Assembly: GCA_965153355.1 (NCBI GenBank)
Contig: OZ231126.1
Coordinates: 16,430,001 to 16,494,000 of the forward strand
Source: Flaccisagitta enflata
Lineage: Eukaryota
Direction of reading: 5' to 3'
DNA: 64,000 bases
Position 1 is the first letter of the stretch; every line of letters starts with the position of its first letter. Position numbers and translations under genes: made by a program. The notes below the pieces were generated by a model. The model was given only the letters and a program-made list of their open reading frames with translations. It was not told the origin of the DNA and made no database searches. Of this stretch, positions 8,684 to 26,280 are shown piece by piece.

Positions 8684-8770
8684 TGACCAGCCAGGGTCTT
8701 CTGTTGTTCGGCTGAGGTATTGATGCAGAAAACAGCTCTCAAACACTCGAAAAAGTTGTGTTACCGACTA

Positions 8771-9176
8771 CTACGCGAATCAATAAAAAAGCCGCACTTT
8801 TAAATGGCAATTTGTCACATTGAATTTCAAAATAATTAAGTAAAGTCTTGGACCATTTTGAAGCTCTCGAAGAGAACTTTCATTTGGCTCCAATCTGATA
8901 TTTCTAGCTTTATTTGTTTAAAAAGAGCATATAAATTGTAAAAACAGTGCCGTTTTCAGTTTTGCAAACCTGTTGAAAAATGAGCATTTTTCTAAAATAG
9001 AGGTTCACTTTGACATGCTGTAACTTCAAAACGGTTTGAGATACAGACCAAAGATTGGTCTAGAATGAAAGAAAATTCAAAAATCTTTAAAATCAGTTAT
9101 AAAATTTTTCAAATAGTTTTTTTTCTGTCTCTTCCACTCACCTACAAAAGGGTGCGGCTTTTTTTTATTCGCGTAG
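8771..9176. mobile_element. Tc1/mariner-type MITE
   Basis: TIRs CTACGCGAAT..AAAAAAGCCGCAC / GTGCGGCTTTTTTTTATTCGCGTAG with TA on both sides. Confidence 0.7.
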
Positions 9177-9322
9177 TAACAGACCAACAGACCGACAGCA
9201 GATTTTTAGTAAGAATGGAATGACTCTGTGGGGCCGTTTTATGCAGATTTTTCTTACAGGTTATTTACAATCGATCCGCCTCATCCGAGTGAAACTGTAT
9301 AACAAGTTTGTCTTTGTCGGCT

Positions 9323-9821
9323 TGTAGGAGGTGGAAAGATGGACAATGAGACGAGCGTGGATTGGAGAGCGAGGTATCATGGACCATCGGAAGAAGCCAT
9401 CGATAAAGTGTTATATCGCGATTCGTTATATCCGTTATCATGATTATGATTATCATTTGCTTATTTACATTGCTGTTTCGTTATGTTTTGGATATGTATA
9501 CATGCTGTTTCAGTTCAGGTCCTTACGTGGGGTTTCGATAAGCAGTCACGGGCTGCATCATTCGTTCTTGGATTAAGCGCTAACCTGAAGTGTATCTATG
9601 TCTTTTCCAGGCCATTACCCAGTGCACAACGCCTGAGATGGAGCGTTGGACACGTCCGACATTATCGTAGACACTATCATAGACATTATCATAGACATTG
9701 GAGAGATATAAGTGATAAACATTGTAGACGCTCTTTCCTGGAATGTGCTTCATCCATAGGCGTTTATACATCCACGCACCGCGCTGGGAGATGGACTGAA
9801 GGTGAGGATTTCCTCCTTACA
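9323..9821 (+). repeat. 5' LTR (499 bp)
   Basis: TGTAGGAGG...CCTCCTTACA; no difference from 24800-25298 found by eye, and the ORF-track translations over both LTRs match. Confidence 0.97.
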
Positions 9822-9822
9822 T

Positions 9823-9835
9823 TGGTGCATCTGCC
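9823..9835 (+). promoter_or_regulatory. Primer-binding site, probably tRNA-Gly(GCC)
   Basis: TGGTGCATCTGCC 1 nt after the LTR, versus TGGTGCATCGGCC expected from a typical invertebrate tRNA-Gly(GCC) 3' end (12/13). Confidence 0.7.
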
Positions 9836-10467
9836 AGCCGAACCATAATCCACTGCATCCACCCCCAAGACGGACCCCCTGTGGAGGCTCTTGCTAGGGG
9901 CACATAGAGTAAACTGTGTGCGGCGGACTCTAACCGTCAACGTCCGCGACTTTCAAGCCGTAGGTGGAGATTTGACGCTCTGGTTTTTTCTGGCGCACAC
10001 TAACCTCCCTATGCTACAAGTGCTAGGAAGATCCGTCTTAACCATCTTTCTCTTGGTACCGATACTCTTGTCGCGCGTAACCGCGGCAAGAGTGTTTCGT
10101 GGCAGGGTACCCAGTTTACGCCGCTGATTCTGCCAGCGACACGGAGCTGTCCTTCTTTAAATCCAGCTGGTAAAATTCTTCGTCTTTTCCTAAGGACCAA
10201 CGCTTGCTGCGGAAGCAGTTTCCCGTGTAGGAGCCCTTTGTCTGCAGACGTGAGGTAATTGGGCTGACGGGATTGTGGAGAAGCAAAAGGAAGTCCTTCT
10301 TTCTTCGGACGCAGTGCCTTGTGGGTGGATTTCGAAGCCCCACCGGGGTCAGCCTCCTACTTCATTTTATTTTGGTGATTTTAGCTTCCCTCATTTGTAT
10401 ATATCACCGCTTTCACATCAACGTGTAATTACCTTGCTCTCATTTTGCTTTCACCTGGAAACGTCCG

Positions 10468-11739
10468 ATGGACTATTCCCTCCCAAGGCCTCATAGCCGG
10501 GAGGCTTCGCGCAACCGTGTGAGATCACGACGCTGCGCAAACGACGAGGTTGTTGTAAGCCATTCAAACACGGAGACTAGAACAGACCAAAAACGCGAAA
10601 GTTCTGTCGACTCCGAAAGTGCAGTAGGTGCAGCTGGTGGAGCCCCAAAACCCAAAGCGGAAAGTAACGTCCGCGAAATCAACTTCCACCACCACCACCA
10701 CCACTACCACCACTACGGTGACTTTAACCAACAACAACAAGAATTCAGGCCTAGCCTCCAAAGCAGCCGTAACCGCAGCCAGGAGCAAGACTCCGGTGCG
10801 GGACTTGAAGGCCTACCATCTTACGAAGAAGCAGTGTCGCAAAGCAACACTTACCTGCAGCACGGAGCAAGTCCCCCGTCCCAGCAACAAGTCTACGCCG
10901 ACAACGGAGTTGTCCGACCCCTGTACAGAAGGTATAACAGGGACAATTCACCGGGTCCAACTGTGCGCGACCAGCGCTACAACAGAGGCGACAGGACAAG
11001 GTCTATCTCTCGGGACAGCTGCGAGAGATACCGAATCATTGGCCGTGAGTTCTTGAGAAGCAGACAGAACAACCCAAGACACTCAACACCCAGAGGACGG
11101 TACCCAAATTACCGCACGCCAATAAGCAGGCCGTCGAGAAGTGAGGAGTCGAGAGGGGAACAACCACCCAGAGTCGAGACCGCAGAGTCCTCTGCTGAAT
11201 CTGACGCCGCCGAGCCTGACGCTGCAGTAGCCGCCGTCGCCGCCGTCGCCAACGCCGCTAACAACGCAGCTGCACCCAGGGCGACTGCGGTGGGCCCAGA
11301 AGATATCTTGGCGGACACGCTCCACATCTTCAGCGATCTGGGAAACACCGACAGTGATACTGACTCCTCATCGCTCAGTATCCCAGACCTCGAAACGGCT
11401 TCCGGTACTGACATCGACATCGGCGAACATCAAATCAGCATCTTGATCAGGACTTCAAGGAAATCCCTCAGGACTGCATTCCTTACTGCAGTCCTGCGAG
11501 TCCTGGGAGAAACCCCGGACCGTAGCAGAGGGTTTGAACACCGTGCTTGGGAAAGCCTCAGAAGCTCCGTCTCAGAGGGTTCTGACATCTATGGCAGAGA
11601 CCTCCGCGAAGCCTGGGAATACGCCTTCAGCGTCGGAAATTATTTCCGTCATTTCTCGCGGATCATCAACCGCCCGGTTTACGAAATCATCCTCCTCCTC
11701 CACCCACCGGAAACAACTCCGGCCACAAGAGCAGATTAG
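10468..11739 (+). CDS. Extra ORF upstream of gag (423 aa), unknown function
   Basis: Uninterrupted ATG-initiated ORF inside the element; His tract, LPSYEEAV motif, Arg-rich and Ala-rich segments, predicted folded C-terminal ~100 aa. Confidence 0.75.
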   Translation: MDYSLPRPHSREASRNRVRSRRCANDEVVVSHSNTETRTDQKRESSVDSESAVGAAGGAPKPKAESNVREINFHHHHHHYHHYGDFNQQQQEFRPSLQSSRNRSQEQDSGAGLEGLPSYEEAVSQSNTYLQHGASPPSQQQVYADNGVVRPLYRRYNRDNSPGPTVRDQRYNRGDRTRSISRDSCERYRIIGREFLRSRQNNPRHSTPRGRYPNYRTPISRPSRSEESRGEQPPRVETAESSAESDAAEPDAAVAAVAAVANAANNAAAPRATAVGPEDILADTLHIFSDLGNTDSDTDSSSLSIPDLETASGTDIDIGEHQISILIRTSRKSLRTAFLTAVLRVLGETPDRSRGFEHRAWESLRSSVSEGSDIYGRDLREAWEYAFSVGNYFRHFSRIINRPVYEIILLLHPPETTPATRAD

Positions 11740-11923
11740 CGCCAACTGCGCTCTCTGCGACCGCTTTCTTATTTTACGGGTAGTATAGTCTATTCTTACC
11801 TCTTGCCTTGTTACTTATATGTACATTTGTTGAACTTGCCCATTGTATAAAGCGCGCTGCTCCGTGTAACAGAAGCTTAGCGCACACCTTAACGGCTGTA
11901 TCTTATCAAAGACCCGCTCCAAA

Positions 11924-13351
11924 ATGGCGACGGAACGGGCAACCCACTCTCTCCCCATCGAAAAGTTCAGACTGGGTTTCCACAATCTGGACAAGTACAT
12001 CCCATTGTTCGAGGATGCGGTTGAACTAAGCTGTAACCCCGCAACAGATGAGCGAAAGAAAGATCTGTGCAAGAAATGGTTCCCTCTCATGCTCGACGAC
12101 GCCGCTAGGACAGTTTATGAAAACATCACCAAGACAACTTGGGATGCAATCAAGGTGGAACTCAAAACCCTGATGATAGACCCGCAGGCACAATACAACT
12201 GGAAAGCGGGCTATGTTACGGTAATCTGGGACGAAAAAGAAAGTTTTCATGAACTTGCCGCTCGTGTCAAACGCTGCGTCGACCTGTACGACCCCACTGC
12301 AGACAAGAAAACCCAATACTTCTTTCGCTTTAGGCTGGCCCTGCCGCCCGAATTCCGCTACGCCATCGACACGAGCGCAGCAGGAGAATCAGGCACCATC
12401 GAAGATGCCAAGGGTGCCGCCTACAGGTTTCAAATGGCGTTGAACGAGATGGGCCTCACATTCACCTCGCAAAAGTCGGTCTCCTTCGACAACGGCATGG
12501 GTAAACCAATGATGGGCGCGGCGAAAAACACTGGACAAACTGCGGGCCACGCCATGGCAGGCCTGGCAATGGGCCAAGGGACGTCCTTCCAAGCCGCGTC
12601 AATGGACCCAGACCGCGTGAAGACCCTCGAAATGGGACTTCAGAAGCTCAGCATTGAAGTTGGCAACCTCAAAGAAGAGAAGGCTACCCAAAGCCGCCAC
12701 TCTTCGACAAACCGCGAGGAACGGAGACCACACTACGAGAACTCCTCCAGCCGACAACCATCCAGGGACCGCGGCGACAGCTATGAAAGGAGGAGATATG
12801 ACAGCCGCGACAGAGGCCGTTATGACAGCCGCGAGAGAGGCCGTTACGATAGCCGCGAGAGAGGCCGTTACGACAGCCGCGACAGAGGCCGTTACGACAG
12901 CCGCGACAGAGGCCGTTACGACAGCCGCGACAGAGGCCGGTATGACAGCCGCGACAGAAGTCGCTACGACAGCCGCGACAGAGGCCGCTACAATAGCCGC
13001 GACAGGGGCCGCTACGATAGCCGCGACAGGGGCCGTTACGACAGCCGAGACCGTGGACGAAGTCGTAGAGACAGCTTCGATTATGATCGAGACAACCGCA
13101 ATCAACGCGGCCGGGACAACCGTAACCGCCGAGACAGTAGAGACAATCGGGATCGCCGGGACGGCCGGGATCGCCGCGATGGGTCGAGAAGACGTGATTC
13201 TGACGACAGGCGCGACAATCGTCGCGACGATGACCGTTCCCGCGACAGGCGTGGCAATGACCGCCCCAGCCTGAATGCGGCAGAGGTGGAGAGACTCCAA
13301 GCCTTCTGCCAAATGCTCGCGGGCGACGGCGATGCTCAACAGGAAAACTAA
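11924..13351 (+). CDS. gag: Gag (capsid-like N-half; R/D-rich repeat C-half; no CCHC knuckle)
   Basis: CAAAATGG start context; retrotransposon capsid-like pattern ([12 protein letters not shown]...[10 protein letters not shown]); directly upstream of pol and ends QEN-stop at a frameshift site. Confidence 0.9.
12794..13057 (+). repeat. 11 x 24-bp coding repeat (RYDSRDRG) in gag
   Basis: Counted 11 units with mostly synonymous differences. Confidence 0.95.
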
Positions 13352-13399
13352 AAACCGGCGCAGCTAGCGGGCAAGCTGGCGCCGGTGAGATGAATGCCC
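13342..13399 (+). promoter_or_regulatory. -1 ribosomal frameshift signal with predicted H-type pseudoknot
   Basis: G GAA AAC heptamer before the gag stop, 5-nt spacer, stem ACCGGCGC-AGCT / AGCT-G-GCGCCGGT, loop GGGCA complementary to downstream TGCCC. The -1 frame is open into pol. Confidence 0.85.
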
Positions 13400-16300
13400 C
13401 TAATGATGCGAGTAATAGTGACAAACACAGTGAAAGAGATCAACCCCAAACCAACACGGAAACAACCACCAAGTGGAGATCAATGTTTGACGTCGTAGTA
13501 GGAACGCAGCGTTTCCCTGTTCTGGGAGACTCGGGCTGCACAAAGTCATGCATGTCGATCGATTATTTTAAGAGAAACCCCAAACTGAAGAAATCATTTG
13601 TTAAGGCCAAAACAACAGGAAGAGCAATCAATGGCTCGGATGTAACATCGATCGGAGAAACAACCCTCAAATTCTCCATCCAAGGGACACCTATGAAGTG
13701 GACCTTCAGAATCATCAAAGGACTGATTGACCCCATAGTCCTTGGCTGGGACTGGATGCTCGAATACAAGGTGAAAATGGATGCCGCAAATGGACTGCTG
13801 CACTTCCTGAATGGCAAAACCGCACCCCTCATTGAAGACCTACCCCCTATGTGTGTCTACAGGGCATGCGAAAACATCATCCTCCCACCTAACTCCCTCG
13901 TTCACGCAGAAGTGGAACTCTATGGAAAGGTTCCCTCACTTGGTGACGGACCCATGGCGGTCATCACCGAACCATTCGTCTCAAATGGAACCTTCTATGC
14001 AGCAAGAACCTGCTCAAATCTGGTCGAAAACAGGTTCATGACAGAGTTTATCAACACAAGCAAAAAGGCAGTGCGATTACAAGCTGGCCAAGCCATCGGA
14101 TTTGCTGAGAAAGTAAGTTCCGATCATGTCGATGAATCCATACACACAACGGAAATGTTTTGCGCATTCAAAAGCAGCAACTCAAAACCAACCGAGCCAG
14201 AGCTGAAGAAAGAACCTGAGTCCGACGAAGACATCACAACACTCAAGCACAAACACAAAGATGTCCCTGAGGACATACCAGAGGGGGCTAAACCACTCAG
14301 CATTGACTACACCAAAATGGCGGAAGACGCGAAACCGTTCCTTCCGCGACTTCAACATCTTCTGGAAGTTAAACACAAGGAAGCTTTCTCCCGCCATGAT
14401 CGCGATTATGGACTGACCAACTTGATCCAATATCGCGCCCACATGAAAGACCCAGATGAAAACCCTACGGCGCAGAAGCCGTACCGCACAAATCCGGAGA
14501 TGCGGGCAATCATCGACAAACAAGCCTACGAGATGATCGCTGATGGCCTCGTTGGGCCATCCAAAAGCCCGTTTGCGGCGCCAATTCTCCTGAACAAGAA
14601 GAAGTGCGGAGGATGGCGCTTCCTGACAGACTTCCGCAAGGTCAACGAGCGATGTGAAAAAGTGGTTTACCCACTCCCTAGGATAGAGGACTCAATCCAA
14701 CGCCTCGAAAACCCAAGATACTTCACATCGCTCGACCTTACGAAGGGCTTTTGGCAAATTCCTGTCCACCCCGCGGACAGGAAATATTTTGCCTTTAGCA
14801 CCGAGAGCATGCACTTAGAGTATCTTGTGGCCCCAATGGGCGCAAAGAACTCTCCTGCCTACCTCAGTGCCTTGATGCAATTGATCTTGCGCGGCTTGCC
14901 CATTCAGAATGTGGTGAGCTACTTAGACGACATACTTATCGCCGACACCGACATGGAGACACACTTGGTCCACCTCGACAAAGTGCTCTCGGCAATCAAG
15001 AAGGCGGGTCTCAAACTGAACCCTGCCAAATCGTCGATAGCGGGAGAGTCTGTTGTCTGCCTCGGTCACCACTTGTCCAGGGAAGGAATCTCCCCTGACC
15101 CCGCCAACGTGAAGAAGATCAAGACTTGGAAAGCTCCCGACAACCAGAAAAAGCTACGCGCTTTCCTCGGTTTGACGGGATACTACCGTCAGTTTGTCCA
15201 AGGCTACAGCAAGATAGCGGGCTGTCTGACCGACCTCACCCGCGACGGAGTTAAGTGGCACTGGGACAAGGAACACCAAGACGCCTTCGAAAAGCTCCGG
15301 GACATACTGATCTCAGATCTAGTGATGTGCTATCCTAACTTCAAGGAGCCCTTTATCGTCAAAACCGACGCGTCGCTCACGGCGATCGGTTACGTCCTGA
15401 CCCAAATGATCAGCAACAAGGAGAGAGTAATCTCTTATGGGTCGAAAAAGCTCAGTCTACCTCAGCAAAGATGGTCAACATATGACCGTGAGTTCTTTGC
15501 TTTGGTCACTGGCATTCGAGCTAACGCCCACTACCTTCGCTACGCAAAGTTCACCGTCGTAACGGATCATCGACCGCTGCTCGCTTGGAGACGCGTAGAC
15601 AGCAGAAAGGACCCGACGGGAAGACGAACCAGGTGGGCCATTGAGCTCGATAATTATGAATTCCAAATGGTTTACAAGAAAGGTAAAACTCACCTGGATG
15701 CCGACGCCATGAGCAGACGTGGCGATGACGACGATGAGGAAGCCGTCGACGACGAAGACTTCTGCTTGGCGACACTCGAAGACCTGTTCGAGGAGCAGCA
15801 GGATGTCGAATATACTTACCATTTCTTGGGCATGGACGATGACAGAGAGTATCTGTTTGCGAGGCTAAGCGCGGAGGAAGATGCTATCGACAAACTCCGC
15901 ACGGAACAAATGGCAGACCCAATCATCCCCGAAGTAATGGAGTTTGTCCGAACACGAAAGAAACCCCCAAAGAAATTCCCATCCGAATGGTACCGCAGAC
16001 ACTTCAAGGCACTTGCGATACGCGACGGCATCCTCTACAGGAAGTCATATGCAAAAGCTGCTGACCGCCATGTCCTGCAAGCGGTCATCCCCGACACCAT
16101 GATTGGGGAAGTCCTAGACGACATCCATGGATCGACCTGGTCGGGTCATCCGGGACTTGAAAAAATGCTCCTCGTGGTCAAGCGATATGCCATTTGGCCT
16201 TCGCTGCGTCAAGACCTCCAGGAAAAAGCTCAAAACTGCCTCATTTGCGACCAAATGCGGGAACAAGTACCTGGACCCGCGACGCCACTACAGCCAATTG

Positions 16301-18678: not shown

Positions 18679-20566
18679 CGTAACCTATCATACCTGAGAT
18701 ACATTCCATCGTCATTTGCTTGTTTATTCCTCGTTGTATCATTCGCATGTTGCTAATTAGATCTTACTAGACCATTCTATTATACTTTTCAACTAACGCA
18801 TAAATGTGAAATCATTTTTTTTGCGTGCCTATATATCGATCATTGCATGACTATCAACTGTATCGTTTATGCAATATAACGCAATAATGTGTAACCATCT
18901 ATGTGCGTTAATCTCATCTTTATCTCATTGCATGAAACTAACATTGATCATTTATCCGCATGGGTGATAACCATCTTGGTGCGGGATACTGAATCCTCTC
19001 ACTGCATGAAAAACTTCATGTTTCCAGTATAATAGTCTATAGTCTAGATCGCGGAATTAGACCGCCAAAAGAAAAAAAAAAAAGGAAAAAAAAAATAACC
19101 TCCCATCATTAGGATAATCCATCTCAACTACTTCATCTACTACTTCATTCTCATTCCATTAAAATCTCCTCATCTACCTCGTGTCCTTTCATCGACGTTT
19201 CCATGACCTTGTACATAGTTGTTAGTTAGTTGGTAATTCTAGAAGTCCGGCTAATCCCAAAACTTGCGCAAATAATAATGATCATTACCCACTAACAATT
19301 TAACCATTCCTCCCCTTCTCCAAAGGTCTGAACCCACAATTCGGACGGGACACTTACTCATGTAACAGAGCCCTAGTGTCACTTTCATTGTTTGACGAAA
19401 AGGAGCTCCATCAACCAAAACGGAAGGTAAACACTGACCATGTTGAAGCTGGACCAGCGACGATCCTTGAAGAATTCTGAGCTGAATGATGATGAATGAA
19501 TGAGCAAAGGCCACGAAATCGAGTGATTGAGATATGCAAAATGAATTATTCAGTGAAAGTTGTTATTGTTGATAGTCTGTAGTAACAACAGTTACTGTCA
19601 ATTTGGCCATGAGTCAATTAACGTCATTAGTTACCACTCTTGTTATAGGTCATGGAGGCTTACTTTCGTTATCACTGACGGGACGCGTAAACCGCGAAAC
19701 CCGCCACTTGTTCTTGCTGTAGAATAGCAACTTAGCTACGGGAATCCTTACCACGGCGCCGTGTGAAACCACGACGACGCCGCGACCTTGTTATTAGATA
19801 GACTGGAAAACAGAATGCGCAACAGGAATACGAACCCAAGAAGAAGAATGAAACATCAAGCAACCACCAGTTCTGAGAATTACGATTCTGAGAGACGCAT
19901 ATTCGTTAATTCCCGCTCAAATCCCCCAGACTAGCTAGACTTGAAATGTGAAGTTTGTAAAATAAAACAGTTGGTCGAATATCTTTTCATTTTCTCATCA
20001 AACTGAAGACAGGGAATTGTAAAACAGGCCAGATTTCTTTCCTCCGTGTATGGACAGATTAGCCAAGGAAATGACCCCTATCCCAAACGTAAAAGAGAGA
20101 GAAAAAAAAAACGCGACATGGACTGAAATCGATACTTTTTTTTTCCTCTTTAGTCTTCTCTAACTTCCATCCACTACTTGCGCAATTTCCGCTTTAACTT
20201 GATTCTGTTTCCTCATTACAAATTCAATCTTTCTTTACTCCTCCTTTTTACTTTTAGAGAATCAGGTAAGAATCTTTAAAGTGAAAGCCTTGATACAAAA
20301 TCGATTTACTTACGGACACGCGCGTAAACGCGGTTCGGTCCGCAACGAAATTCATGTAATTTGCCCAGAATAACAAACTCGATAGTGCATTCAAAGATTC
20401 TTTCGGCCCCAGGGCCGCGATAGCGCATTCGGGTAAGTAAGTAGTTCTGTAGTAACACAATTTAGACGGAAACACATGTGATAGTCGTTCTCCGTAATTG
20501 ACATCCCCCCTTCCATACAACGGAGCCGACGACACACGTGTAACAGTGTGCATCGTCACTCGCAAA

Positions 20567-23500
20567 ATGGCTCATCAATTTAGAATCCCAAAAGAGAATG
20601 ACGCCAAGGCAGACATCGTCATCAACGTGCCAGAGGATGTCCTCGACTGCGAGCGCACAGACTTACCCACACTTATCCCTGACATGAGTCTGCTGCCATC
20701 ATGGGGTAAAGGCGTTAAAAAGCCCAACAAAAACACTGACAAACGCCAGATTAACGAGCTTGAGGCCGTGGTTGAAGCAAGACTCTCAAGGCGCATCACT
20801 ATGGATCAGAAAGATATCCTTTATATCAACACATGTGATAGTGCAGATCAGATGGGAAAAGAAATCAATGACGCAATTGAGAGATTTGAAGGTGAGTACG
20901 TGAAGATGGGCGTAGACAACGAAAAAGATGGAAGCACCGTCCAACTGTCCATCAATCTCCCTAACCTCGATGGCCCAAACAAACACTTTGTAAGACATGT
21001 CATCTTCCAAACCAAGGCAACCCCAGAACACGAGTCTTACATTTTCAAAGATGGCGCATTCCCTCACAACCTCAGTGATATGTGGCATAACATGAAGCTT
21101 GTGATTGAGGGTGTTGAAATTCGGAAGGAAATCCCTATCCTCGCGAAATTGTTCAGAATCAACAATGAAACGGTAAATCGACTCAACTACATTGAAATCA
21201 GTGAAATCTTTGATTTTGTCTACTGCCTCACCAAGGAACCCGGTGAAGCACGGCGCTTCCTTGAATGCGACATGGCAGACGAAAAAAAAGTCAGACCATT
21301 CCGTTCGGTCCTCGACAAAGTAGGTCTGAAAACCTTTTGCAGACTGGCATGGCCGGACAGCGCATTGTTGAAGGTAACAGTTGCGCGCGATGACAGGGCT
21401 AACTACGATTTGAAAAAAGGTAAGTTGAGTGAATTCCTTAAAGAATATTGCTCTCTTGACGCAAAAGTAGGAAATGAGGCGCCGGAAGAGGTCTGCAATA
21501 AATATTTAGGAATAGACCCAATCCTTTTCGCGCGCCGATATGGTGGAGAAGACGCCGTCCTTGACTCTCTCAAAAGTAGAACCCTCAAAAGAGCTCTTGA
21601 AATCTTGGAGGGCCACCGTGATTCGCTCGATGCAAGCGAACCCGAGATGAGGGTTGTCAGAGCCTTAGAGGAAAAATTGAAAAACAACCTAGCAAGGAAG
21701 TTCTTCCCGCCTTTCCAAACCGTTCGTCACTACCTACATTTTCGCGCCATCGGAGTAGGAATGATGCGCGGAAAACGAGAGAACAAAAGAGTAGGCTTAG
21801 GCAGAACGCCAGTTGACGCAAAAACGCGCGAGTTGTATGAGGCCATGGAACGCGTTTACATAAGTCGCGTGAGATATGGAGAGTCCATTGAGCAAATGGA
21901 AGAAAGGATTGCAAAGTTGGGTAATGGTGAAACACATTCACCCGACATAACACCGCAATCTTCTCCGGTAAGAGTAGTTGAGTATGACGCGACTGAAACG
22001 GAGATAACGGAGAATGACGCAACAGACGCCGAAAACGCGGAATCTGAAGCGACGGCCACAGATGCGTCTGAGAACGCTGCCGCTGCCGGCGCTGCCGCCG
22101 TTGCTGCAGCGGAATCGCCAGTTGTAAGACCGAAAGAACGCGAATTGGACGACGAAATCCTAAGGAAACGCAAGTGGAGACGTGAAAGAGACGCTCAGCC
22201 GACTTCAGGTGAAGATGACGATGACGATGATGTTGATATTACAAATCAAAATGATCTGTCTCAATCTTCTGCCGATTCACCTATAAAAACCAACTCATTT
22301 TCTCCCAACCCAGATTCGTTACCGCGTATTTCGAGAGTAACCACTGTTTCCATTAGGGAACCAGAGAAAGAGTCATTACGTAGATCTAGCCCGGATCATT
22401 CTCAAGGTAAACACAGGCCAACTGTTGGAGCAAAGAGGAATTCGTTTGTAAATGATGAATATTTGGAGATGGATTTGGTGACGCCAACAAGAGATGGGGC
22501 TAAATCAACGTTAAAAAGGCGCAGAGATGACCCAGATGCAGAATCGAAAAATGCGTCATCCTCTACTGTCCTTTCTGAGGAATCCATGGATAAGATGATT
22601 ACGTGGTTCAAAAATAAATTGAGAGATGGGATGAACGGGATACCTTCTAATTTCAATATTTCCGCTAATTTTTCCACTAACCCAACAGACACGGAAACCG
22701 TTGTAACTGTTACACCTTTACCCTCATCTTCTCTTTCTTTTCCCTCCTCTTCAGGTCCAAACCGTTCGACAAAACATAACGCCGTCACGACGGCGAAATG
22801 TCGAGCAGTTACACTGAAGAGGAATTTTACCGCCTTGAAAAATGGCACAGGCACAAGAGATAGGAACGACCCAAATGATCAGCGGTCAGAGATGGAAGTG
22901 AAGATTGACGAGGCCGTGCAGATGATTGTAGAAAAGCCCTCACAGTCACTTAGAAATGCAGTTGACCGCATCTTTGTGCCTGACGACAAAAAGTTCGTTG
23001 ATAATTGCATCACGCTTGTCAAAAGATACATGGCAATTGAAACCAACCGAAGTAACAAAGCACGTATGTACACGGAGGTTCATAACGAATTGGGAGAGCG
23101 CCTCCAGAAAGCCTTTGTTTATCGCCTTTTGAATGAAAGCGTCATTCAGAGCCGCATCGCCATCATTACGAGGCTCAAATTTGATGCGGTCCCGGCCGAA
23201 ATTTTGCTGGACTACTTTGTCAACCAAACGGATTTGAATGGATTTAAGGAAGCTCTCTTGATGTTTTCTGAACCGGAGGTGAATCGTGTCGTGCGGAAGT
23301 TGGCCAAAAATTTCCGCGATCACGATGAAATTGCAAATTGGATGAACCGGTTCACTTATTTCCGGCCAATCGACACCGACAAAGTTGGTGAGCGGTTCAC
23401 GTTGAAACACGTGCACAAATTTGTCACTACCGCGTGCAGCCATGTCGGAATTCCGGTGCCTGAGGAAGCAAAATTCATATTTCTAGAAAAGTTCCTCTCC

Positions 23501-24406
23501 TTTTCTCTCAAAACCTACGGACGTCAGGAAATCGAGCCTCGCGATTTTTACGTCATGTTGAAGGAGTTTACCGGCGAGAGTGAAGAACTATTTGATCTTG
23601 CAGTTGAACAGATAAAAAGTCAGAACAGCGATCTCGCCTTTTTCCTAGAGATGCGAGAGAAAGGCCAGTCTGACATTCAGTCGACAGGGCGTGAACCGGA
23701 TTGCCAAACGCCGTTGAATCACGTCTTGCACGGTTTACCGCCTGAACGGGAAATGATGCTCAGTAACAACGACAGCGTCACTAGCTTCCGTTCATATTTG
23801 CGGGAAAGCAACATCTTTGCCATGGATGTGCAAAATGTGTTTGTGAACGGACGAACCTGTATCGGTCTTATCACCTTCAGGTTCAAAAGAAAGGTATTCT
23901 TTTTTCAGCCTCGTGTGAACGGCAATCTTTGCTTTGAGATTGCGGATTTGCTAAAAAGCTGCAATCGTAAGTGCATTGCTTACGATTTTAAGAAGCACCA
24001 AGATATGCTTTACGACATGTTTGATGAGTGGGACCCGGAGGTGGTCATTGACGCAAAGGTCGTCGCCGAAAGTAAAGGCATTGAGTCCAACATGGAAGGG
24101 CTGTCCCAAGATGTCACAGGAGGGAGCTTCTGTTCACGCGCCTCCGATTGCCCTTCCTTGACGACGCCAAGCAGACAAGCTCTGCGACATCGGGGAATTA
24201 GAGCGAGCCTCTTCTACAGCTTTGTTCTAAAACACATCGACCTGGATGATCGTGTTAGACGTCAACGTGACGACAGTGAGCACCGCGATTGGTCTAGAGG
24301 AAGGAGGCGTGCTCATTCAGGAAGCGAGAGAGAGAGATGCTCGGGAAGCGATCGGGAGCTGATGTCGCCGGACGGACGTGTGCCGCGGAAAAGATACCGC
24401 CGTTAA
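20567..24406 (+). CDS. Env-position ORF (~1279 aa): DEDDy 3'-5' exonuclease domain, disordered linker, helical region, degenerate second exonuclease domain
   Basis: CAAAATGG start. ExoI MGVDNE, VQLS, GVEIRKE, GLKTFC..LLK, ExoIII LSEFLKEYCSLDA. C-terminal copy IFAMDVQ..IADLLK..KCIAYDF..VIDAKVVA..EGLSQDVTG..PSRQALRH. No signal peptide or TM segment seen. Confidence 0.85.
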   Translation: MAHQFRIPKENDAKADIVINVPEDVLDCERTDLPTLIPDMSLLPSWGKGVKKPNKNTDKRQINELEAVVEARLSRRITMDQKDILYINTCDSADQMGKEINDAIERFEGEYVKMGVDNEKDGSTVQLSINLPNLDGPNKHFVRHVIFQTKATPEHESYIFKDGAFPHNLSDMWHNMKLVIEGVEIRKEIPILAKLFRINNETVNRLNYIEISEIFDFVYCLTKEPGEARRFLECDMADEKKVRPFRSVLDKVGLKTFCRLAWPDSALLKVTVARDDRANYDLKKGKLSEFLKEYCSLDAKVGNEAPEEVCNKYLGIDPILFARRYGGEDAVLDSLKSRTLKRALEILEGHRDSLDASEPEMRVVRALEEKLKNNLARKFFPPFQTVRHYLHFRAIGVGMMRGKRENKRVGLGRTPVDAKTRELYEAMERVYISRVRYGESIEQMEERIAKLGNGETHSPDITPQSSPVRVVEYDATETEITENDATDAENAESEATATDASENAAAAGAAAVAAAESPVVRPKERELDDEILRKRKWRRERDAQPTSGEDDDDDDVDITNQNDLSQSSADSPIKTNSFSPNPDSLPRISRVTTVSIREPEKESLRRSSPDHSQGKHRPTVGAKRNSFVNDEYLEMDLVTPTRDGAKSTLKRRRDDPDAESKNASSSTVLSEESMDKMITWFKNKLRDGMNGIPSNFNISANFSTNPTDTETVVTVTPLPSSSLSFPSSSGPNRSTKHNAVTTAKCRAVTLKRNFTALKNGTGTRDRNDPNDQRSEMEVKIDEAVQMIVEKPSQSLRNAVDRIFVPDDKKFVDNCITLVKRYMAIETNRSNKARMYTEVHNELGERLQKAFVYRLLNESVIQSRIAIITRLKFDAVPAEILLDYFVNQTDLNGFKEALLMFSEPEVNRVVRKLAKNFRDHDEIANWMNRFTYFRPIDTDKVGERFTLKHVHKFVTTACSHVGIPVPEEAKFIFLEKFLSFSLKTYGRQEIEPRDFYVMLKEFTGESEELFDLAVEQIKSQNSDLAFFLEMREKGQSDIQSTGREPDCQTPLNHVLHGLPPEREMMLSNNDSVTSFRSYLRESNIFAMDVQNVFVNGRTCIGLITFRFKRKVFFFQPRVNGNLCFEIADLLKSCNRKCIAYDFKKHQDMLYDMFDEWDPEVVIDAKVVAESKGIESNMEGLSQDVTGGSFCSRASDCPSLTTPSRQALRHRGIRASLFYSFVLKHIDLDDRVRRQRDDSEHRDWSRGRRRAHSGSERERCSGSDRELMSPDGRVPRKRYRR

Positions 24407-24788
24407 GAGTCGTGTTTTTTTTGTCTGTCCATCATGGTGAAATACATGTTTTTGGGCGCTAATGACATAAACCGTCTCTCCTCTTTCAGTGATTCTAATT
24501 ACATGGCGATCGTTTAATAACATTGACATTCTTCGATGATATGCGAGAATCGTGGATTAACTCTCTTGTATCTATGGTTATTGGAAGATGCTCGTGATTC
24601 ATGGAAGTGGTGCGACTACTTTGATCGTTAGTAGGGAATGTTAGGAAGTGGTGAAAAACTGTCGTTTTTTGGGACCTTTGAGTGAGGGTGAATGAAAGAG
24701 AGAGGCCTTCCCCGCAGATACACGTAAAATCATGTTTTTTTTTCTGCATTATTTCGACATTTTCCCTACGAGGCCGTACGGGAGTGTC

Positions 24789-24799
24789 GAGGGGAAGTA
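24789..24799 (+). promoter_or_regulatory. Polypurine tract
   Basis: GAGGGGAAGTA directly before the 3' LTR. Confidence 0.8.
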
Positions 24800-25298
24800 T
24801 GTAGGAGGTGGAAAGATGGACAATGAGACGAGCGTGGATTGGAGAGCGAGGTATCATGGACCATCGGAAGAAGCCATCGATAAAGTGTTATATCGCGATT
24901 CGTTATATCCGTTATCATGATTATGATTATCATTTGCTTATTTACATTGCTGTTTCGTTATGTTTTGGATATGTATACATGCTGTTTCAGTTCAGGTCCT
25001 TACGTGGGGTTTCGATAAGCAGTCACGGGCTGCATCATTCGTTCTTGGATTAAGCGCTAACCTGAAGTGTATCTATGTCTTTTCCAGGCCATTACCCAGT
25101 GCACAACGCCTGAGATGGAGCGTTGGACACGTCCGACATTATCGTAGACACTATCATAGACATTATCATAGACATTGGAGAGATATAAGTGATAAACATT
25201 GTAGACGCTCTTTCCTGGAATGTGCTTCATCCATAGGCGTTTATACATCCACGCACCGCGCTGGGAGATGGACTGAAGGTGAGGATTTCCTCCTTACA
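24800..25298 (+). repeat. 3' LTR (499 bp)
   Basis: Direct repeat of 9323-9821, followed by the GGCT TSD. Confidence 0.97.
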
Positions 25299-25804
25299 GG
25301 CTATGATGGATGTCGAAGATCTCAGTCTCAGCCTCCAAGGCACGACCTGGTTGAGTGGTTGTCTAAAAGTCTGTGAATTCTTTTTTTACGGGTTGTTAGC
25401 TACTCTGCCGTGTCATGCTTTGTCATTTATCGTCACGTGTCATGTCATGTCATGTCGTTTCATGCTTTTGTCATTTATCGTCACGTGTCGCTTTTCGTCG
25501 GTAAAATAGTATGACGAATAAAATTTTCGTGTAATTGTCTGGGAATTGCTTCCTCTAGACGAAACTGATAACGGGAATTGATTTTTCCATCTTGGAGTAA
25601 ACCTGCTTACTAAATCGCGTGCACGGGCTCGCGATTTTTTAAGTTCAATTTGCCATTTTTCTGTGAGTAAATCCGTCCGTCGGTCGGCTGCTTTTTTGTT
25701 CTTCCCGAGCACTTAATCCCTGCCCAGTGCCCAATGACTGGAATAGCCTCTACTAATCCACAAAAGATTTGTTACCATGAATAACTTTGATGTTTTGTAA
25801 TCTT

Positions 25805-26280
25805 CAGTCAGTAGACAAAACAAAATAGGTAGAGACCTCACTCTGTTGGCTTTGATCCAACCTACTGTTAATAAACAAAATGATGTAAACAGCAACTGGT
25901 TGTAAAATTTACAGCCGGCTGTTGTGCTACTACGTTTGCAAAAATCCAACTTAGATAGAATAAAATGTGACTAGCGTATTCATAATTCTGATGAAAATCT
26001 GAGAAGTTTGACATATCACACTTAACACTTTTTGCAAGAAATTTTTTTTTTAACATTGCATTATGATTAAATTGACATATCAAACTTCTCAGAATTTCAT
26101 CAGGATTGTGAATCTGCAGGTCTCATTTTATTTGGTGAAAGTTTTGCCAACTCTGTAACTTAACAGCCGGCTGTAATTTCAACAACCAGATATTGTTTAC
26201 AGGATTCCGTTCATCATCAGTGGGTTGGATCAAAGCCAACAGACTGAGTTCTCTACCTATTGTGTTTTGTCCACTGACTG
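25805..26280. mobile_element. Fold-back MITE
   Basis: Arms CAGTCAGTAGACAAAAC..GTTGGCTTTGATCCAACC / GGTTGGATCAAAGCCAAC..GTTTTGTCCACTGACTG; TSD unclear. Confidence 0.7.

What the first reader, a model, noticed from the sequence alone, without database searches (positions are those of the whole stretch)
9323..25298. Very large, apparently very recent four-ORF Gypsy element
Seen: 15,976 bp, LTRs with no difference detectable by eye, a perfect GGCT TSD, and four uninterrupted ORFs. It has no HINE, MITE or long (GA)n insertion, although the flanks are full of them. Established: typical animal Ty3/Gypsy elements are much shorter, with 1-3 ORFs. Extra ORFs on both sides of gag-pol recall plant Ogre/Tat elements. 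Inference: a currently active lineage whose accessory ORFs are probably functional.
Basis: partly seen in the sequence, partly recalled or inferred. Interest (0 to 1): 0.72.

Follow-up and report, generated by a model that had tools for sequence, protein, structure and literature searches.

The report
Young Gypsy retrotransposon with exonuclease gene
This is an intact, very recently inserted 16-kb Gypsy-type jumping gene of a marine organism that carries, besides gag and pol, two extra conserved genes, one of which is a two-part relative of RNA/DNA-trimming exonucleases and not an envelope gene.

Summary
Window 9323-25298 is a 15,976-bp LTR element with 499-bp LTRs identical at 499 of 499 positions, TG..CA ends, a GGCT target-site duplication and four open frames. 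Contigs of two DNA runs of the same coded organism join 9318 directly to 25299 with one GGCT. That is the empty site, so the insertion is polymorphic.

- ORF3 is a Ty3/Gypsy pol (PR-RT-RNaseH-IN).
- ORF2 is gag. Pol lies in the -1 frame behind a conserved GGAAAAC-stop and a stem-loop.
- ORF1 is a mostly disordered protein with five relatives.
- ORF4 (1,279 aa) has no Pfam hit and no membrane segment. It has 98 relatives in the representative library.
  - Its N-terminal domain folds like the WRN exonuclease (Z 17.6) and keeps the DEDDy-type residues.
  - Its C-terminal half folds like Nibbler/Mut-7 but lacks the catalytic residues.

The closest published precedent is the DEDDy ORF3 of bdelloid-rotifer Juno/Vesta elements (PMC5408684).

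Activity is not shown: no RNA reads lay on the element. ORF4 coverage is far lower than gag-pol coverage in two of three DNA runs.

Verdict: a new variant of a known kind, of moderate interest.

The parts
9319..9322 (+). Target-site duplication, left copy (GGCT)
   Evidence: The empty-site joint 9318->25299 keeps one GGCT.
9323..9821 (+). 5' LTR, 499 bp, TG..CA
   Evidence: Identical to 24800-25298 at 499 of 499 positions.
9823..9840 (+). Primer-binding-site-like stretch starting TGG, 1 nt after the LTR
   Evidence: Read from the sequence. The matching tRNA is not identified: no tRNA gene lies in the window and no genome is held.
10468..11739 (+). ORF1, 423 aa. Accessory protein, mostly low-complexity, with an invariant His run, an invariant LPSYEEAV motif and a conserved C-terminal region.
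   Evidence: No Pfam family. Five relatives at 31-64% identity; alignment. Three of the 4 listed differences are synonymous.
11924..13351 (+). ORF2 = gag, 475 aa. Conserved N-terminal 250 aa and an Arg/Asp/Ser/Gly-rich tail that contains about 10 copies of a 24-nt (8-aa) repeat at 12715-13074. No CCHC knuckle.
   Evidence: Residues 4-249 match the ORF directly upstream of pol in L001 and L003 at 31% identity. The Atlas feature search gives gag, PNMA and DUF7041 clusters at 0.89-0.90, which is a lead only. Repeat. No CCHC.
13342..13386 (+). Putative -1 frameshift signal: GGAAAAC (13342-13348), the gag stop (13349-13351), and a stem-loop at 13354-13386
   Evidence: AGGAAAACT followed by a stop codon (TAA, TGA or TAG) is invariant in the window, L003 and L001. 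The consensus stem has 3 of 11 pairs kept through changes on both sides. Pol is in the -1 frame in all three. The stretch of L003's pol frame that was read (2086-2170) has no ATG.
13390..18678 (+). ORF3 = pol, 1762 aa (frame open from 13261). Protease with DSG (about aa 37-134), RT (aa 403-562), RNase H (aa 625-756), integrase zinc finger and core (aa 900-1069), then a roughly 500-aa low-complexity tail that ends in a conserved GRF motif.
   Evidence: Pfam RVT_1 6e-30, RT_RNaseH 1e-26, rve 2e-13, Integrase_H2C2 5e-12. RVP_2 is weak at 0.097. 234 relatives, the best at 71% identity. 20 synonymous against 5 non-synonymous listed differences. Tail motif.
18679..20566 (+). 1.9-kb non-coding spacer, 40% G+C, with A-rich tracts at 19067-19095 and 20091-20111
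   Evidence: No + strand frame of 70 aa or more. Composition. A-rich runs. Sequence. Depth is like the rest of the element, so it is not a high-copy insertion.
20567..24406 (+). ORF4, 1279 aa. Accessory protein with two exonuclease-fold modules joined by a low-complexity linker (about aa 431-778).
   Evidence: No Pfam family. 98 relatives at E<=1e-3. Start Met nearly invariant. No hydrophobic segment (maximum 19-residue hydropathy 1.08).
20783..21547 (+). ORF4 N-terminal DEDDy-type 3'-5' exonuclease domain (aa 73-327): ExoI D117-x-E119, ExoII E188, ExoIII Y294-x3-D298
   Evidence: AF2 model with pLDDT 90.3. WRN exonuclease Z 17.6, rmsd 2.3, 179 aligned. Foldseek 2fbx E 8e-6. Motif columns.
22901..24166 (+). 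ORF4 C-terminal half (aa 779-1200): helical domain plus a degenerate exonuclease-like domain (aa about 1050-1200) without the catalytic acidic residues. Invariant residues include C1046, H1055 and C1189.
   Evidence: AF2 model with pLDDT 89.1. Nibbler EXO domain Z 13.0, rmsd 2.6, 149 aligned. Nibbler N-terminal domain Z 7.8 on model residues 1-188. Foldseek 7jw2 E 1.7e-4. Columns.
24789..24799 (+). Polypurine tract (GAGGGGAAGTA) abutting the 3' LTR
24800..25298 (+). 3' LTR, 499 bp
25299..25302 (+). Target-site duplication, right copy (GGCT)

Best explanation
Window 9323-25298 is one complete, recently integrated and insertionally polymorphic Ty3/Gypsy-type LTR retrotransposon of a marine eukaryote. 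It belongs to a large, unnamed lineage that is known so far almost only from marine metagenome assemblies.

Shown:
- The LTRs, target-site duplication, primer-binding-like stretch and polypurine tract.
- A gag ORF (ORF2).
- A PR-RT-RNaseH-IN pol (ORF3) in the -1 frame.
- Two extra conserved genes, ORF1 and ORF4.

Inferred, fairly strongly: pol is made as a Gag-Pol fusion. The ribosome slips back one base at the conserved GGAAAAC just before the gag stop, helped by a stem-loop 5 nt downstream of the stop.

ORF4 is not an envelope gene.
- Its first domain is a WRN/RNase D/Nibbler-type DEDDy 3'-5' exonuclease. All motif residues are present, with Glu in place of the ExoII Asp, so it is probably catalytically active.
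- Its last 420 residues copy the helical-domain-plus-exonuclease plan of Nibbler/Mut-7. They have lost the metal-binding acids, so this part is probably a nucleic-acid- or protein-binding pseudo-enzyme.

My preferred mechanism for ORF4 is inference only, at about 0.3. ORF4 is made from a subgenomic or internally initiated mRNA and acts on RNA 3' ends in the element's RNP. It either trims or destroys host small silencing RNAs, or competes with the host Nibbler/Mut-7-type machinery, and so helps the element escape silencing. The next most likely role, at about 0.3, is 3'-end processing of the element's own RNA or cDNA.

ORF1 is a mostly disordered, His-rich protein with an invariant LPSY motif. 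I read it as an accessory Gag-like adaptor, with low confidence.

The confidence of 0.7 applies to the identity and anatomy of the element and to the fold assignments of ORF4, not to the proposed role of ORF4.
For: Structure and youth:
- Identical 499-bp LTRs, TG..CA ends and a GGCT duplication.
- An exact empty-site joint 9318->25299. It skips 15,980 nt, which is the element plus one GGCT, and 4 letters fit both sides. It is present in X1 (shorter side 26 nt) and X2 (shorter side 48 nt).

Pol and its lineage:
- Pol domains.
- 234 pol relatives. The best 80 or so are 41-71% identical, are mostly 1500-1900 aa long and come almost all from ENA assemblies. The closest named protein is only 35% identical.
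- Near-identical pieces of the element are in marine-metagenome runs.

Selection: 24 synonymous against 6 non-synonymous among the 30 listed differences that fall in ORFs. Only 40 of 255 differences were listed.

Frameshift:
- AGGAAAACT plus a stop codon is invariant in 3 of 3 sequences.
- The stem has compensatory changes in 3 of 11 pairs.
- No ATG lies in the stretch of L003's pol frame that was read, 2086-2170.

ORF4:
- 98 relatives; those aligned are about 20-36% identical.
- At least 8 relatives are full length (1099-1398 aa), and the five aligned ones have both domains.
- The start Met is nearly invariant.
- N-terminal domain: WRN Z 17.6, Nibbler Z 16.7.
- ExoI D and E are present in 17 of 17 sequences. 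ExoIII Y and D are present in 16 of 16. The ExoII position is D in 14, E in 4 and N in 1 of 19.
- C-terminal half: Nibbler EXO domain Z 13.0 and Nibbler N-terminal domain Z 7.8. The ExoI-equivalent acids are not conserved, and there is no ExoIII.
- No membrane segment in any ORF.
- A 98%-identical C-terminal fragment with the same stop is in an independent assembly.

ORF1: 5 relatives, with invariant His-run and LPSYEEAV motifs.
Against: - No transcription was seen: 0 reads on the element among about 12.16 million records, about 6% of the one polyA RNA run.
- In X2 and X3 the depth over most of ORF4 is roughly ten-fold below that over gag-pol. In X2 it is 3-46 against about 300-650, apart from one bin at 184. 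So many near-identical copies may lack ORF4 or carry a diverged one. Contig depths are a poor measure.
- No relative of ORF4 could be shown to lie inside an LTR element. 0 of 81 fetched loci hold an ORF4 relative. 0 of the 98 proteins scanned (97 ORF4 relatives from the search and one cluster member) carry RT or IN domains.
- Full-length ORF4 relatives sit on contigs only about 0.3-0.9 kb longer than the ORF. That would also fit stand-alone genes.
- ORF4's best full-length relatives are only about 26% identical, while pol reaches 71% and ORF1 64%.
- ORF4 and the spacer are lower in G+C than ORF1-3: GC3 is 0.50 against 0.56-0.65, and the spacer is 0.40. This hints at a separate origin.
- Pfam does not recognise the exonuclease domain in the window's protein. 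Only 1 of 98 scanned proteins hits PF01612, and below its cut-off.
- The GGAAAAC heptamer is not a canonical X XXY YYZ site.
- The downstream hairpin is not more stable than shuffled sequence (z -1.1 to -1.4).
- Catalysis, substrate and any link to silencing are untested.
Confidence: 0.7

Rival explanations
1. ORF4, perhaps together with the spacer, is a passenger. It would be a host or foreign gene module picked up by template switching and carried along, without any role in the element's replication. ORF1 could be the same.
For: - There is a composition break: ORF4 GC3 is 0.50 and the spacer G+C is 0.40, against GC3 of 0.56-0.65 in ORF1-3.
- A-rich tracts lie in the spacer upstream of ORF4.
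- ORF4 relatives sit alone on contigs of about 4 kb, and none of them carries RT or IN domains.
- ORF4 depth is much lower than gag-pol depth in X2 and X3.
- Published precedent: ORF3 modules are exchanged between bdelloid retroelements, with no clear link to copy number (passages of PMC5408684).
Against: - The ORF is intact over 1279 codons in a copy that moved as one unit.
- The family keeps its start, its two-domain plan and the N-terminal catalytic residues across relatives that are only about 20-36% identical.
- The 98 relatives include none above 36% identity, apart from one near-identical fragment.
- In X1, ORF4 is as deep as pol.
Confidence: 0.2
2. ORF4 is an RNA-localisation or RNP adaptor, not a nuclease. 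It would resemble Drosophila Egalitarian, an exonuclease-fold protein that ties localising mRNAs to the BicD-dynein motor, and would carry the element's RNA towards the germline.
For: - Egalitarian-BicD-RNA complexes are among the fold matches of both halves. For the N-terminal domain: Z 13.6, 203 aligned. For the C-terminal half: Z 10.2, and Foldseek E about 1e-3 with the longest alignments.
- One of these solved entries holds a signal from I-factor retrotransposon mRNA, according to the entry title.
- The C-terminal exonuclease fold has lost its catalytic residues.
Against: - The N-terminal domain keeps a full DEDDy-type set of residues. That argues for catalysis.
- WRN, Nibbler and RNase D score higher than Egalitarian.
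- The long Egalitarian alignments have rmsd of 13-26 Angstrom.
- No BicD-binding region was tested.
Confidence: 0.1
3. ORF4 or ORF1 replaces an envelope or egress function, so the element is an infectious, errantivirus-like agent.
For: - ORF4 sits where env lies in retrovirus-like Gypsy elements.
- ORF1 has an invariant LPSY motif, which resembles PPxY-type budding motifs. The resemblance is recalled, not tested.
Against: - No hydrophobic segment reaches transmembrane range in any of the four ORFs (maximum 19-residue hydropathy 1.16).
- ORF4's two folded parts are exonuclease folds.
- No fusion-protein family appears among the Pfam hits.
Confidence: 0.03
4. The perfect LTR identity or the four-ORF layout is an assembly artefact, such as collapsed LTRs or a chimera of two elements.
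For: - No read-level data for the source assembly were available.
- The contigs of X1, X2 and X3 differ from the window copy by about 0-3%, so the exact copy was not re-observed.
Against: - The structure is exactly bounded by a 4-nt duplication, and that duplication is single in the empty-site contigs of two runs.
- All parts of the element are covered by independent contigs at 97-100% identity in X1 (table 8).
- The primer-binding-like stretch and the polypurine tract sit where they should.
Confidence: 0.04

Closest known systems
Juno and Vesta LTR retrotransposons of bdelloid rotifers with a DEDDy-exonuclease ORF3 (Rodriguez, Kenefick and Arkhipova 2017, PMC5408684; abstract and DEDDy passages read)
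   Same: - A Gypsy-like LTR element with an extra ORF after pol that encodes an RNase D/WRN/Mut-7-type DEDDy exonuclease and not env.
- No transmembrane or coiled-coil segment in that ORF.
- The paper reports DEDD changed to DEED. The window's copy also has Glu at the ExoII position.
- The paper notes a Cys-His-Cys motif in some of these ORFs. ORF4's C-terminal half has invariant C1046, H1055 and C1189.
   Different: - The host is a marine organism and the genome region is repeat-rich, unlike the freshwater bdelloids.
- Pfam detects no dUTPase in pol, whereas three of the four bdelloid lineages encode one (abstract).
- ORF4 is a much larger two-module protein with a second, catalytically dead Nibbler-like half.
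- There is also an extra ORF upstream of gag.
- Direct sequence homology to the Juno/Vesta ORF3 could not be tested, because no sequences were on hand.
Terminons / Athena Penelope-like giant retroelements of bdelloids (mentioned in PMC5408684 and PMC6431247; passages read)
   Same: Retroelements that carry DEDDy 3'-exonuclease genes as accessory ORFs.
   Different: - They use a Penelope-like RT, have no LTRs or integrase, and are telomere-associated, reaching up to 40 kb.
- The element here is a canonical LTR-IN element.
Plant Ogre and Tat Ty3/Gypsy elements (recalled; cited in PMC6431247)
   Same: Large Gypsy elements (16-25 kb for Ogre, per the passage) with an extra ORF before gag (Ogre) or after pol (Tat).
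   Different: - They belong to a plant lineage.
- Their extra ORFs have no reported exonuclease fold (recalled).
- No homology was tested here; the resemblance is in layout only.
Nibbler / Mut-7 (PDB 7jw2, 7jw6, 7jw3) and the WRN exonuclease (2e6l, 2fbx)
   Same: - Fold: the ORF4 N-terminal domain matches WRN at Z 17.6 and Nibbler at Z 16.7.
- The ORF4 C-terminal half matches the Nibbler EXO domain at Z 13.0. Its helical part matches the Nibbler N-terminal domain at Z 7.8.
   Different: - Sequence identity is 9-19%, and there is no significant sequence-profile match to PDB chains.
- The C-terminal module lacks the catalytic acids.
- The gene is encoded inside a transposon.
Burro giant Gypsy elements of the planarian Schmidtea mediterranea (passage of PMC6431247)
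   Same: Unusually large animal Gypsy-like elements with extra domains.
   Different: Burro is over 30 kb, present in thousands of copies, and has its extra domains (including env-like ones) in frame between gag and pol. No exonuclease is reported in the passage read.

Membership tests
Ty3/Gypsy (Metaviridae) LTR retrotransposon | Direct LTRs ending TG..CA, flanked by a short (4-6 bp) target-site duplication | tested here: met
   The 499-bp LTRs are 100% identical, have TG..CA ends and are flanked by a GGCT duplication.
Ty3/Gypsy (Metaviridae) LTR retrotransposon | Pol domain order PR-RT-RNase H-IN, with integrase after RT | tested here: met
   RVT_1 at aa 403-562, RT_RNaseH at 650-756, Integrase_H2C2 at 900-957, rve at 977-1069. 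The protease has a DSG motif and only a weak RVP_2 match at E 0.097.
Ty3/Gypsy (Metaviridae) LTR retrotransposon | Primer-binding site after the 5' LTR and a polypurine tract before the 3' LTR | tested here: inconclusive
   A TGG-initiated stretch starts 1 nt after the LTR, and GAGGGGAAGTA abuts the 3' LTR. The complementary tRNA is not identified.
Ty3/Gypsy (Metaviridae) LTR retrotransposon | RT groups phylogenetically with a named Gypsy clade | not tested
   No reference clade sequences were on hand. Pfam finds no chromodomain. The closest named protein is a Branchiostoma protein at 35% identity.
DEDDy (DnaQ-like, RNase D/WRN/Mut-7) 3'-5' exonucleases: ORF4 N-terminal domain | ExoI D-x-E | tested here: met
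   The window has GVDNE (D117, E119). D and E are present in 17 of 17 aligned sequences.
DEDDy (DnaQ-like, RNase D/WRN/Mut-7) 3'-5' exonucleases: ORF4 N-terminal domain | ExoII Asp | tested here: not met
   The window has Glu188. In the family the position is D in 14, E in 4 and N in 1 of 19 sequences. The same DEED variant is reported for the bdelloid ORF3s (PMC5408684 passage).
DEDDy (DnaQ-like, RNase D/WRN/Mut-7) 3'-5' exonucleases: ORF4 N-terminal domain | ExoIII Y-x3-D | tested here: met
   The window has YCSLD (Y294, D298). Y and D are present in 16 of 16 sequences.
DEDDy (DnaQ-like, RNase D/WRN/Mut-7) 3'-5' exonucleases: ORF4 N-terminal domain | DnaQ-like exonuclease fold | tested here: met
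   The model has pLDDT 90.3. WRN exonuclease matches at Z 17.6, rmsd 2.3, with 179 of 186 residues aligned. Foldseek gives E 8e-6 and TM 0.71 on the target.
DEDDy (DnaQ-like, RNase D/WRN/Mut-7) 3'-5' exonucleases: ORF4 N-terminal domain | Match to Pfam PF01612 at the curated cut-off | tested here: not met
   The window's protein has no hit, even at E 10. One of the 98 scanned proteins scores 21.1 bits against a cut-off of 23.6.
DEDDy (DnaQ-like, RNase D/WRN/Mut-7) 3'-5' exonucleases: ORF4 N-terminal domain | Exonuclease activity | not testable with these tools
   This needs an enzyme assay.
Nibbler / Mut-7: ORF4 C-terminal half | Helical N-terminal domain followed by an EXO domain | tested here: inconclusive
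   EXO domain: Z 13.0, rmsd 2.6, 149 aligned. Nibbler N-terminal domain: Z 7.8, rmsd 5.1, 168 aligned, which is below the level the tool calls reliable for helical folds.
Nibbler / Mut-7: ORF4 C-terminal half | Catalytic DEDDy residues | tested here: not met
   The ExoI-equivalent position reads A-x-D-x-H/Q and the D is not conserved. There is no conserved ExoII acid. The domain ends before ExoIII.
Bdelloid Juno/Vesta-type elements with a DEDDy ORF3 | A DEDDy ORF downstream of pol in an LTR element | tested here: met
Bdelloid Juno/Vesta-type elements with a DEDDy ORF3 | A dUTPase domain in pol (three of the four bdelloid lineages, per the abstract) | tested here: not met
   Pfam finds no dUTPase in ORF3 at E<=0.01.
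Bdelloid Juno/Vesta-type elements with a DEDDy ORF3 | Sequence relatedness of pol and ORF3 to Juno/Vesta | not testable with these tools
   No Juno or Vesta sequences could be fetched. None of the 44 cluster members listed for ORF4 and pol relatives carries a name.
Retroviral or errantiviral env | Signal peptide, transmembrane anchor or fusion-protein fold | tested here: not met
   The maximum 19-residue hydropathy is 1.16 in any ORF. The folds are exonuclease-like.

The most novel reading that the evidence does not exclude
ORF4 is a transposon-encoded antagonist of the host's small-RNA silencing. An active WRN/Nibbler-type 3'-5' exonuclease would shorten or destroy piRNAs or siRNAs aimed at the element. 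It is fused to a catalytically dead mimic of the host Nibbler/Mut-7 protein, which would dock it onto, or block, the silencing machinery. That would be an LTR-retrotransposon counterpart of viral suppressors of RNA silencing. The fast divergence of ORF4 (about 26% identity where pol keeps up to 71%) would then reflect an arms race.
Probability: 0.15. Interest if true: 0.85.

Novelty: new variant of a known kind. Interest (0 to 1): 0.55.

Why it matters
Accessory genes of retrotransposons are rare windows on how these elements deal with their hosts. In the papers I searched, exonuclease genes inside retroelements are reported only from bdelloid rotifers.

This element shows the same idea in an unrelated, marine, repeat-rich genome, and in a more elaborate form. 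An apparently active DEDDy domain is joined to a dead Nibbler/Mut-7-like module. About a hundred diverged relatives of the protein are found in environmental assemblies.

Because this copy is intact, young and polymorphic, the function of the extra genes could be tested directly. The conserved GGAAAAC-stop frameshift signal is a further small finding.

If ORF4 does act on small RNAs, it would be a new type of transposon counter-defence.

Tried and rejected
- Whole-genome search: no genome is held. Copy number, solo LTRs and the tRNA complement of the primer-binding stretch were therefore out of reach.
- Word-based protein search with ORF4 at near lengths found nothing. The exhaustive search did find relatives.
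- Pfam on ORF1, ORF2 and ORF4 gave nothing usable. One search failed on a frame error and was corrected.
- Profile searches of both ORF4 domains against PDB sequences gave only low-complexity or insignificant hits. The Mut-7 homologue 7jw2 scored E 0.18.
I used a pol alignment instead.
  - The metagenome scan gave 80 loci. Only L001-L003 are close (41-57% identity) and all three are under 5 kb.
  - The viral-contig scan gave one distant locus.
  - None of the 81 loci holds an ORF1 or ORF4 relative.
- hhalign of A2 against A1 was meaningless, because both alignments held the same full-length rows. Repeated on trimmed exonuclease parts, it showed no similarity (probability 0.9%). The two modules are therefore not recognisable duplicates.
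- Rfam and tRNA scans of the window found nothing.
- No RNA holder was listed for the element.
- Earlier findings of the scan: nothing by place, by sequence or by words.
- Pfam on 12 long frames outside the element gave only low-complexity artefacts, so there is no clue to the host taxon.
- The hairpins downstream of the slip site are not more stable than shuffled sequence (z -1.1 to -1.4). The support for the stem comes from conservation only.
- Paper searches:
  - 'LTR retrotransposon + Nibbler + suppressor' gave general piRNA reviews; only the listing was seen.
- An RT-RH-IN phylogeny against named Gypsy clades was not done, because no reference sequences were on hand.
- Env reading: rejected, because no ORF has a membrane segment.

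Full report
**1. The observation**

A direct-repeat search and an exact extension show two 499-bp repeats, at 9323-9821 and 24800-25298. They agree at all 499 positions and stop matching exactly at both ends. They start TG and end CA. GGCT lies immediately outside on both sides. The element is 15,976 bp long.

Under the standard code there are four long + strand ORFs:

| ORF | Coordinates | Length |
|---|---|---|
| ORF1 | 10468-11739 | 423 aa |
| ORF2 | 11924-13351 | 475 aa |
| ORF3 | 13390-18678 | 1762 aa |
| ORF4 | 20567-24406 | 1279 aa |

A stretch beginning TGG starts 1 nt after the 5' LTR, and the purine run GAGGGGAAGTA abuts the 3' LTR.

The only tandem repeat inside the element is an in-frame 24-nt unit in ORF2. 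Long (GA)n/(CT)n arrays lie elsewhere in the window. No second copy, fragment or other pol-like sequence is in the window.

**2. Recency and polymorphism**

No genome is held for this window. One search of public runs found two DNA runs of one coded organism (X1, X2), four marine-metagenome runs and one RNA run. I laid X1, X2, X3 and X7 on 8300-26300.

- **Empty site.** Contigs of X1 and X2 join 9318 to 25299. They skip 15,980 nt, which is the element plus one GGCT, and four letters fit either side. That is the precise empty site. The shorter side is 26 nt in X1 and 48 nt in X2. The insertion is therefore absent from at least one haplotype in other samples of the same organism.
- **Other copies.** Contigs covering the element in X1 differ from the window by about 0-0.8% (for example 12 differences in 1515 nt, 0 in 545, 9 in 2119). 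Those in X2 differ by about 1-3%. Related copies exist, but the window's exact copy was not re-observed.
- **Selection.** Of the 40 differences listed (out of 255), 30 fall in ORFs, and 24 of those are synonymous. The split is 20:5 in ORF3, 3:1 in ORF1 and 1:0 in ORF2. The copies diverged under purifying selection, as expected for a replicating lineage.

Three results count against present-day activity or a universal four-ORF layout.
- None of about 12.16 million RNA records (about 6% of run X7) lay on the element.
- The depth over most of ORF4 is about ten-fold below gag-pol in X2 (3-46 against about 300-650) and lower in X3. In X1 the two are equal. Contig depths are crude, but near-identical copies without ORF4, or with a diverged ORF4, are a real possibility.
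- In X1 the only contig over 18358 has an 11-nt deletion, which would shift the frame of the last 100 or so codons of pol.

**3. gag and pol**

ORF3 carries RVT_1, RT_RNaseH, Integrase_H2C2 and rve in the Gypsy order. Upstream is a DSG protease with a weak RVP_2 match. Pfam finds no chromodomain and no dUTPase.

ORF3 has 234 relatives. The best 80 or so are 41-71% identical, nearly all come from ENA assemblies, and most are 1500-1900 aa long, so the long C-terminal tail is a family trait. The closest named protein, from Branchiostoma, is 35% identical. The tails are low-complexity, but many end in a conserved ..G(R/K)F.. motif.

ORF2 residues 4-249 match the ORF directly upstream of pol in two related metagenome contigs, L001 and L003, at 31% identity. 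A protein-language-model search places this part next to gag, PNMA and DUF7041 clusters at 0.89-0.90, which is a lead only. ORF2 has no CCHC knuckle. Its C-terminal part is Arg/Asp/Ser/Gly-rich and includes about ten RGRYDSRD repeats.

In the window, L003 and L001 alike, pol lies in the -1 frame relative to gag. The nine bases AGGAAAACT followed by a stop codon (TAA, TGA and TAG respectively) are invariant. A consensus stem-loop begins six to seven bases after the heptamer, and 3 of its 11 pairs are kept through changes on both sides. No ATG lies in the part of L003's pol frame that I read, 2086-2170.

I infer Gag-Pol synthesis by -1 slippage at GGAAAAC next to the stop. Two points weaken this. 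The heptamer is non-canonical, and the hairpins are not more stable than shuffled sequence.

**4. ORF1**

ORF1 has no Pfam family. It does have five relatives (64, 60, 44, 31 and 31% identity) on short ENA contigs. The alignment shows these invariant or conserved features:
- an invariant SES..GAAGG motif;
- an invariant His run (HHHHHHYHHYG);
- an invariant LPSYEEAV motif;
- a conserved C-terminal region.

The closest pol relative that has upstream sequence, L003, has no ORF1 homologue. Its gag instead carries an in-frame, roughly 330-aa disordered N-terminal extension. ORF1 is thus a real gene of one sub-lineage. Its role is unknown. The LPSY motif resembles PPxY-type adaptor motifs, but that resemblance is recalled and was not tested.

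**5. ORF4**

Pfam finds nothing, and the word-based search found nothing. An exhaustive HMMER search of 1.84 billion representatives found 98 relatives at E<=1e-3, 56 of them at E<=1e-10.

The relatives cover two separate conserved regions, aa about 7-420 and aa about 780-1195. Several full-length relatives of 1099-1398 aa have both regions. The start Met is nearly invariant. A 161-aa fragment from another assembly is 150/153 identical and ends at the same stop.

*N-terminal domain.* AlphaFold models built with these alignments are confident, at pLDDT 90.3 for this domain and 89.1 for the C-terminal half. The N-terminal domain (aa 73-327) superposes on the WRN exonuclease (Z 17.6, rmsd 2.3, 179 of 186 residues) and on the Nibbler EXO domain (Z 16.7). 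Foldseek gives E 8e-6. The DEDDy motifs are in place:

| Motif | Window | Aligned sequences |
|---|---|---|
| ExoI D-x-E | D117, E119 | D and E in 17 of 17 |
| ExoII | E188 | D in 14, E in 4, N in 1 of 19 |
| ExoIII Y-x3-D | Y294, D298 | Y and D in 16 of 16 |

*C-terminal half.* This half consists of a helical domain and an alpha/beta domain. The alpha/beta domain matches the Nibbler EXO domain (Z 13.0, rmsd 2.6, 149 aligned) and RNase D, RRP6, Exd1 and WRN. The helical part's best match is the Nibbler N-terminal domain (Z 7.8), which on its own is inconclusive. The ExoI-equivalent acids are not conserved, there is no ExoII acid, and the domain ends before ExoIII. C1046, H1055 and C1189 are invariant. 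The two exonuclease-fold parts show no profile similarity to each other.

No ORF has a membrane-range hydrophobic segment, so ORF4 is not an env.

*Is ORF4 part of such elements in general?* I could not decide this.
- 0 of 81 fetched loci hold an ORF4 relative.
- 0 of the 98 proteins scanned (97 ORF4 relatives from the search and one cluster member) carry RT or IN domains.
- Full-length relatives lie on contigs only about 0.3-0.9 kb longer than the ORF, with one exception of 7.6 kb. That fits either a separate mRNA or a stand-alone gene.
- ORF4 (GC3 0.50) and the 1.9-kb spacer (G+C 0.40) are poorer in G+C than ORF1-3 (GC3 0.56-0.65).
- ORF4's best full-length relatives are only about 26% identical, whereas pol reaches 71%.

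Together these suggest a module that was acquired separately, or one that evolves fast.

**6. Comparison with what is known**

Two full-text searches found one precedent. Rodriguez, Kenefick and Arkhipova 2017 (PMC5408684; abstract and all DEDDy passages read) report the following:
- bdelloid-rotifer Juno and Vesta LTR elements carry an ORF3 with a DEDDy exonuclease;
- the DEDD motif is changed to DEED;
- these ORFs lack transmembrane and coiled-coil segments;
- they are shared with Athena/Terminon elements;
- some of them carry a Cys-His-Cys motif.

The authors state that DEDDy exonucleases had not been reported in retrotransposons before, and that the function is unknown. A review (PMC6431247; passages read) repeats this and lists larger animal Gypsy elements, such as Burro at over 30 kb. 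The size of the present element is therefore unusual but not a record.

The element here shares the principle and even the DEED detail. It differs from the bdelloid elements in these respects:
- its host is marine;
- it has no detectable dUTPase;
- its ORF4 has the second, dead Nibbler-like half;
- it has an extra ORF upstream of gag.

The resemblance to plant Ogre/Tat elements is one of layout only.

**7. Verdict**

This is a real, intact, very young and polymorphic Gypsy-type element. It has two accessory genes that are conserved gene families.

- The reading 'recent' is supported.
- 'Accessory ORFs probably functional' is supported by conservation, but ORF4 may not be universal among close copies.
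- 'Currently active' is not shown.

The most likely role of ORF4 is action on RNA or DNA 3' ends in the element's RNP. My preferred reading, at about 0.3, is interference with small-RNA silencing. Processing of the element's own RNA or cDNA is about as likely, and a passenger gene stands at about 0.2.

It is a new variant of a known kind.

Noticed in passing
window 17140-18678 (pol aa about 1250-1762): The roughly 500-aa low-complexity tail of pol ends in NGRFRK. A similar ..G(R/K)F.. motif lies within the last 45 residues of many of the 36 pol proteins printed. It is a short linear motif at the end of an otherwise unconserved tail and could be a targeting or import signal.
   Followed up: partly
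window 8300-8900 and 25729-26300: The flanks hold repeats with summed contig depth of about 2.0 million and 0.26 million in X1, against about 90-150 for the empty-site contig and the element. These are extremely abundant short repeats.
   Followed up: no
window 18358: The only X1 contig over this place lacks 11 nt (depth 153 of 153). This would shift the frame of the last 100 or so pol codons in that copy. X2 and X3 do not show it.
   Followed up: no
window 20921-24526: In X2 the depth over most of ORF4 is 3-46, against about 300-650 over gag-pol. X3 shows a similar drop, while in X1 the two are equal. Copies without ORF4, or with a diverged ORF4, may exist.
   Followed up: partly
window 9502-10703: The 3' part of the LTR and the 5' leader have 5-12 times the depth of the coding region in X1 and X2. 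This hints at solo LTRs or at non-autonomous relatives that share the leader.
   Followed up: no
window 19067-19095 and 20091-20111: Two A-rich tracts lie in the spacer between pol and ORF4, with a partly complementary T-rich run at 20136-20161. They could be a trace of how the ORF4 module was acquired, or an internal polyadenylation or promoter region.
   Followed up: no
window 10687-10716 and 10813-10836 (ORF1 aa 74-83 and 116-123): An invariant His run (HHHHHHYHHY) and an invariant LPSYEEAV motif are present in all six aligned ORF1-family proteins.
   Followed up: partly
proteins P0125, P0137-P0139, P0146, P0226-P0229, P0240, P0242: Full-length ORF4 relatives sit on ENA contigs of 3.96-4.74 kb, only 0.3-0.9 kb longer than their ORFs. 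ORF1 relatives sit on contigs of 1.8-2.2 kb. The narrow size range looks like transcripts and not like random genomic breaks.
   Followed up: no
window 32402-33511, 29607-29914, 39643-40090, 37681-37957: There are satellite-like arrays with units of 33/110/154 nt, 20 nt and 21/42/63 nt, and a (GTCC)n run of 277 nt. No recognisable host gene was found among the 12 long frames tested outside the element.
   Followed up: no
L003 2-2101: In this relative (57% identical to the window's pol in the best segment), gag carries an in-frame, roughly 330-aa Pro/Thr/Ser/Ala-rich N-terminal extension where the window has a separate ORF1.
   Followed up: partly
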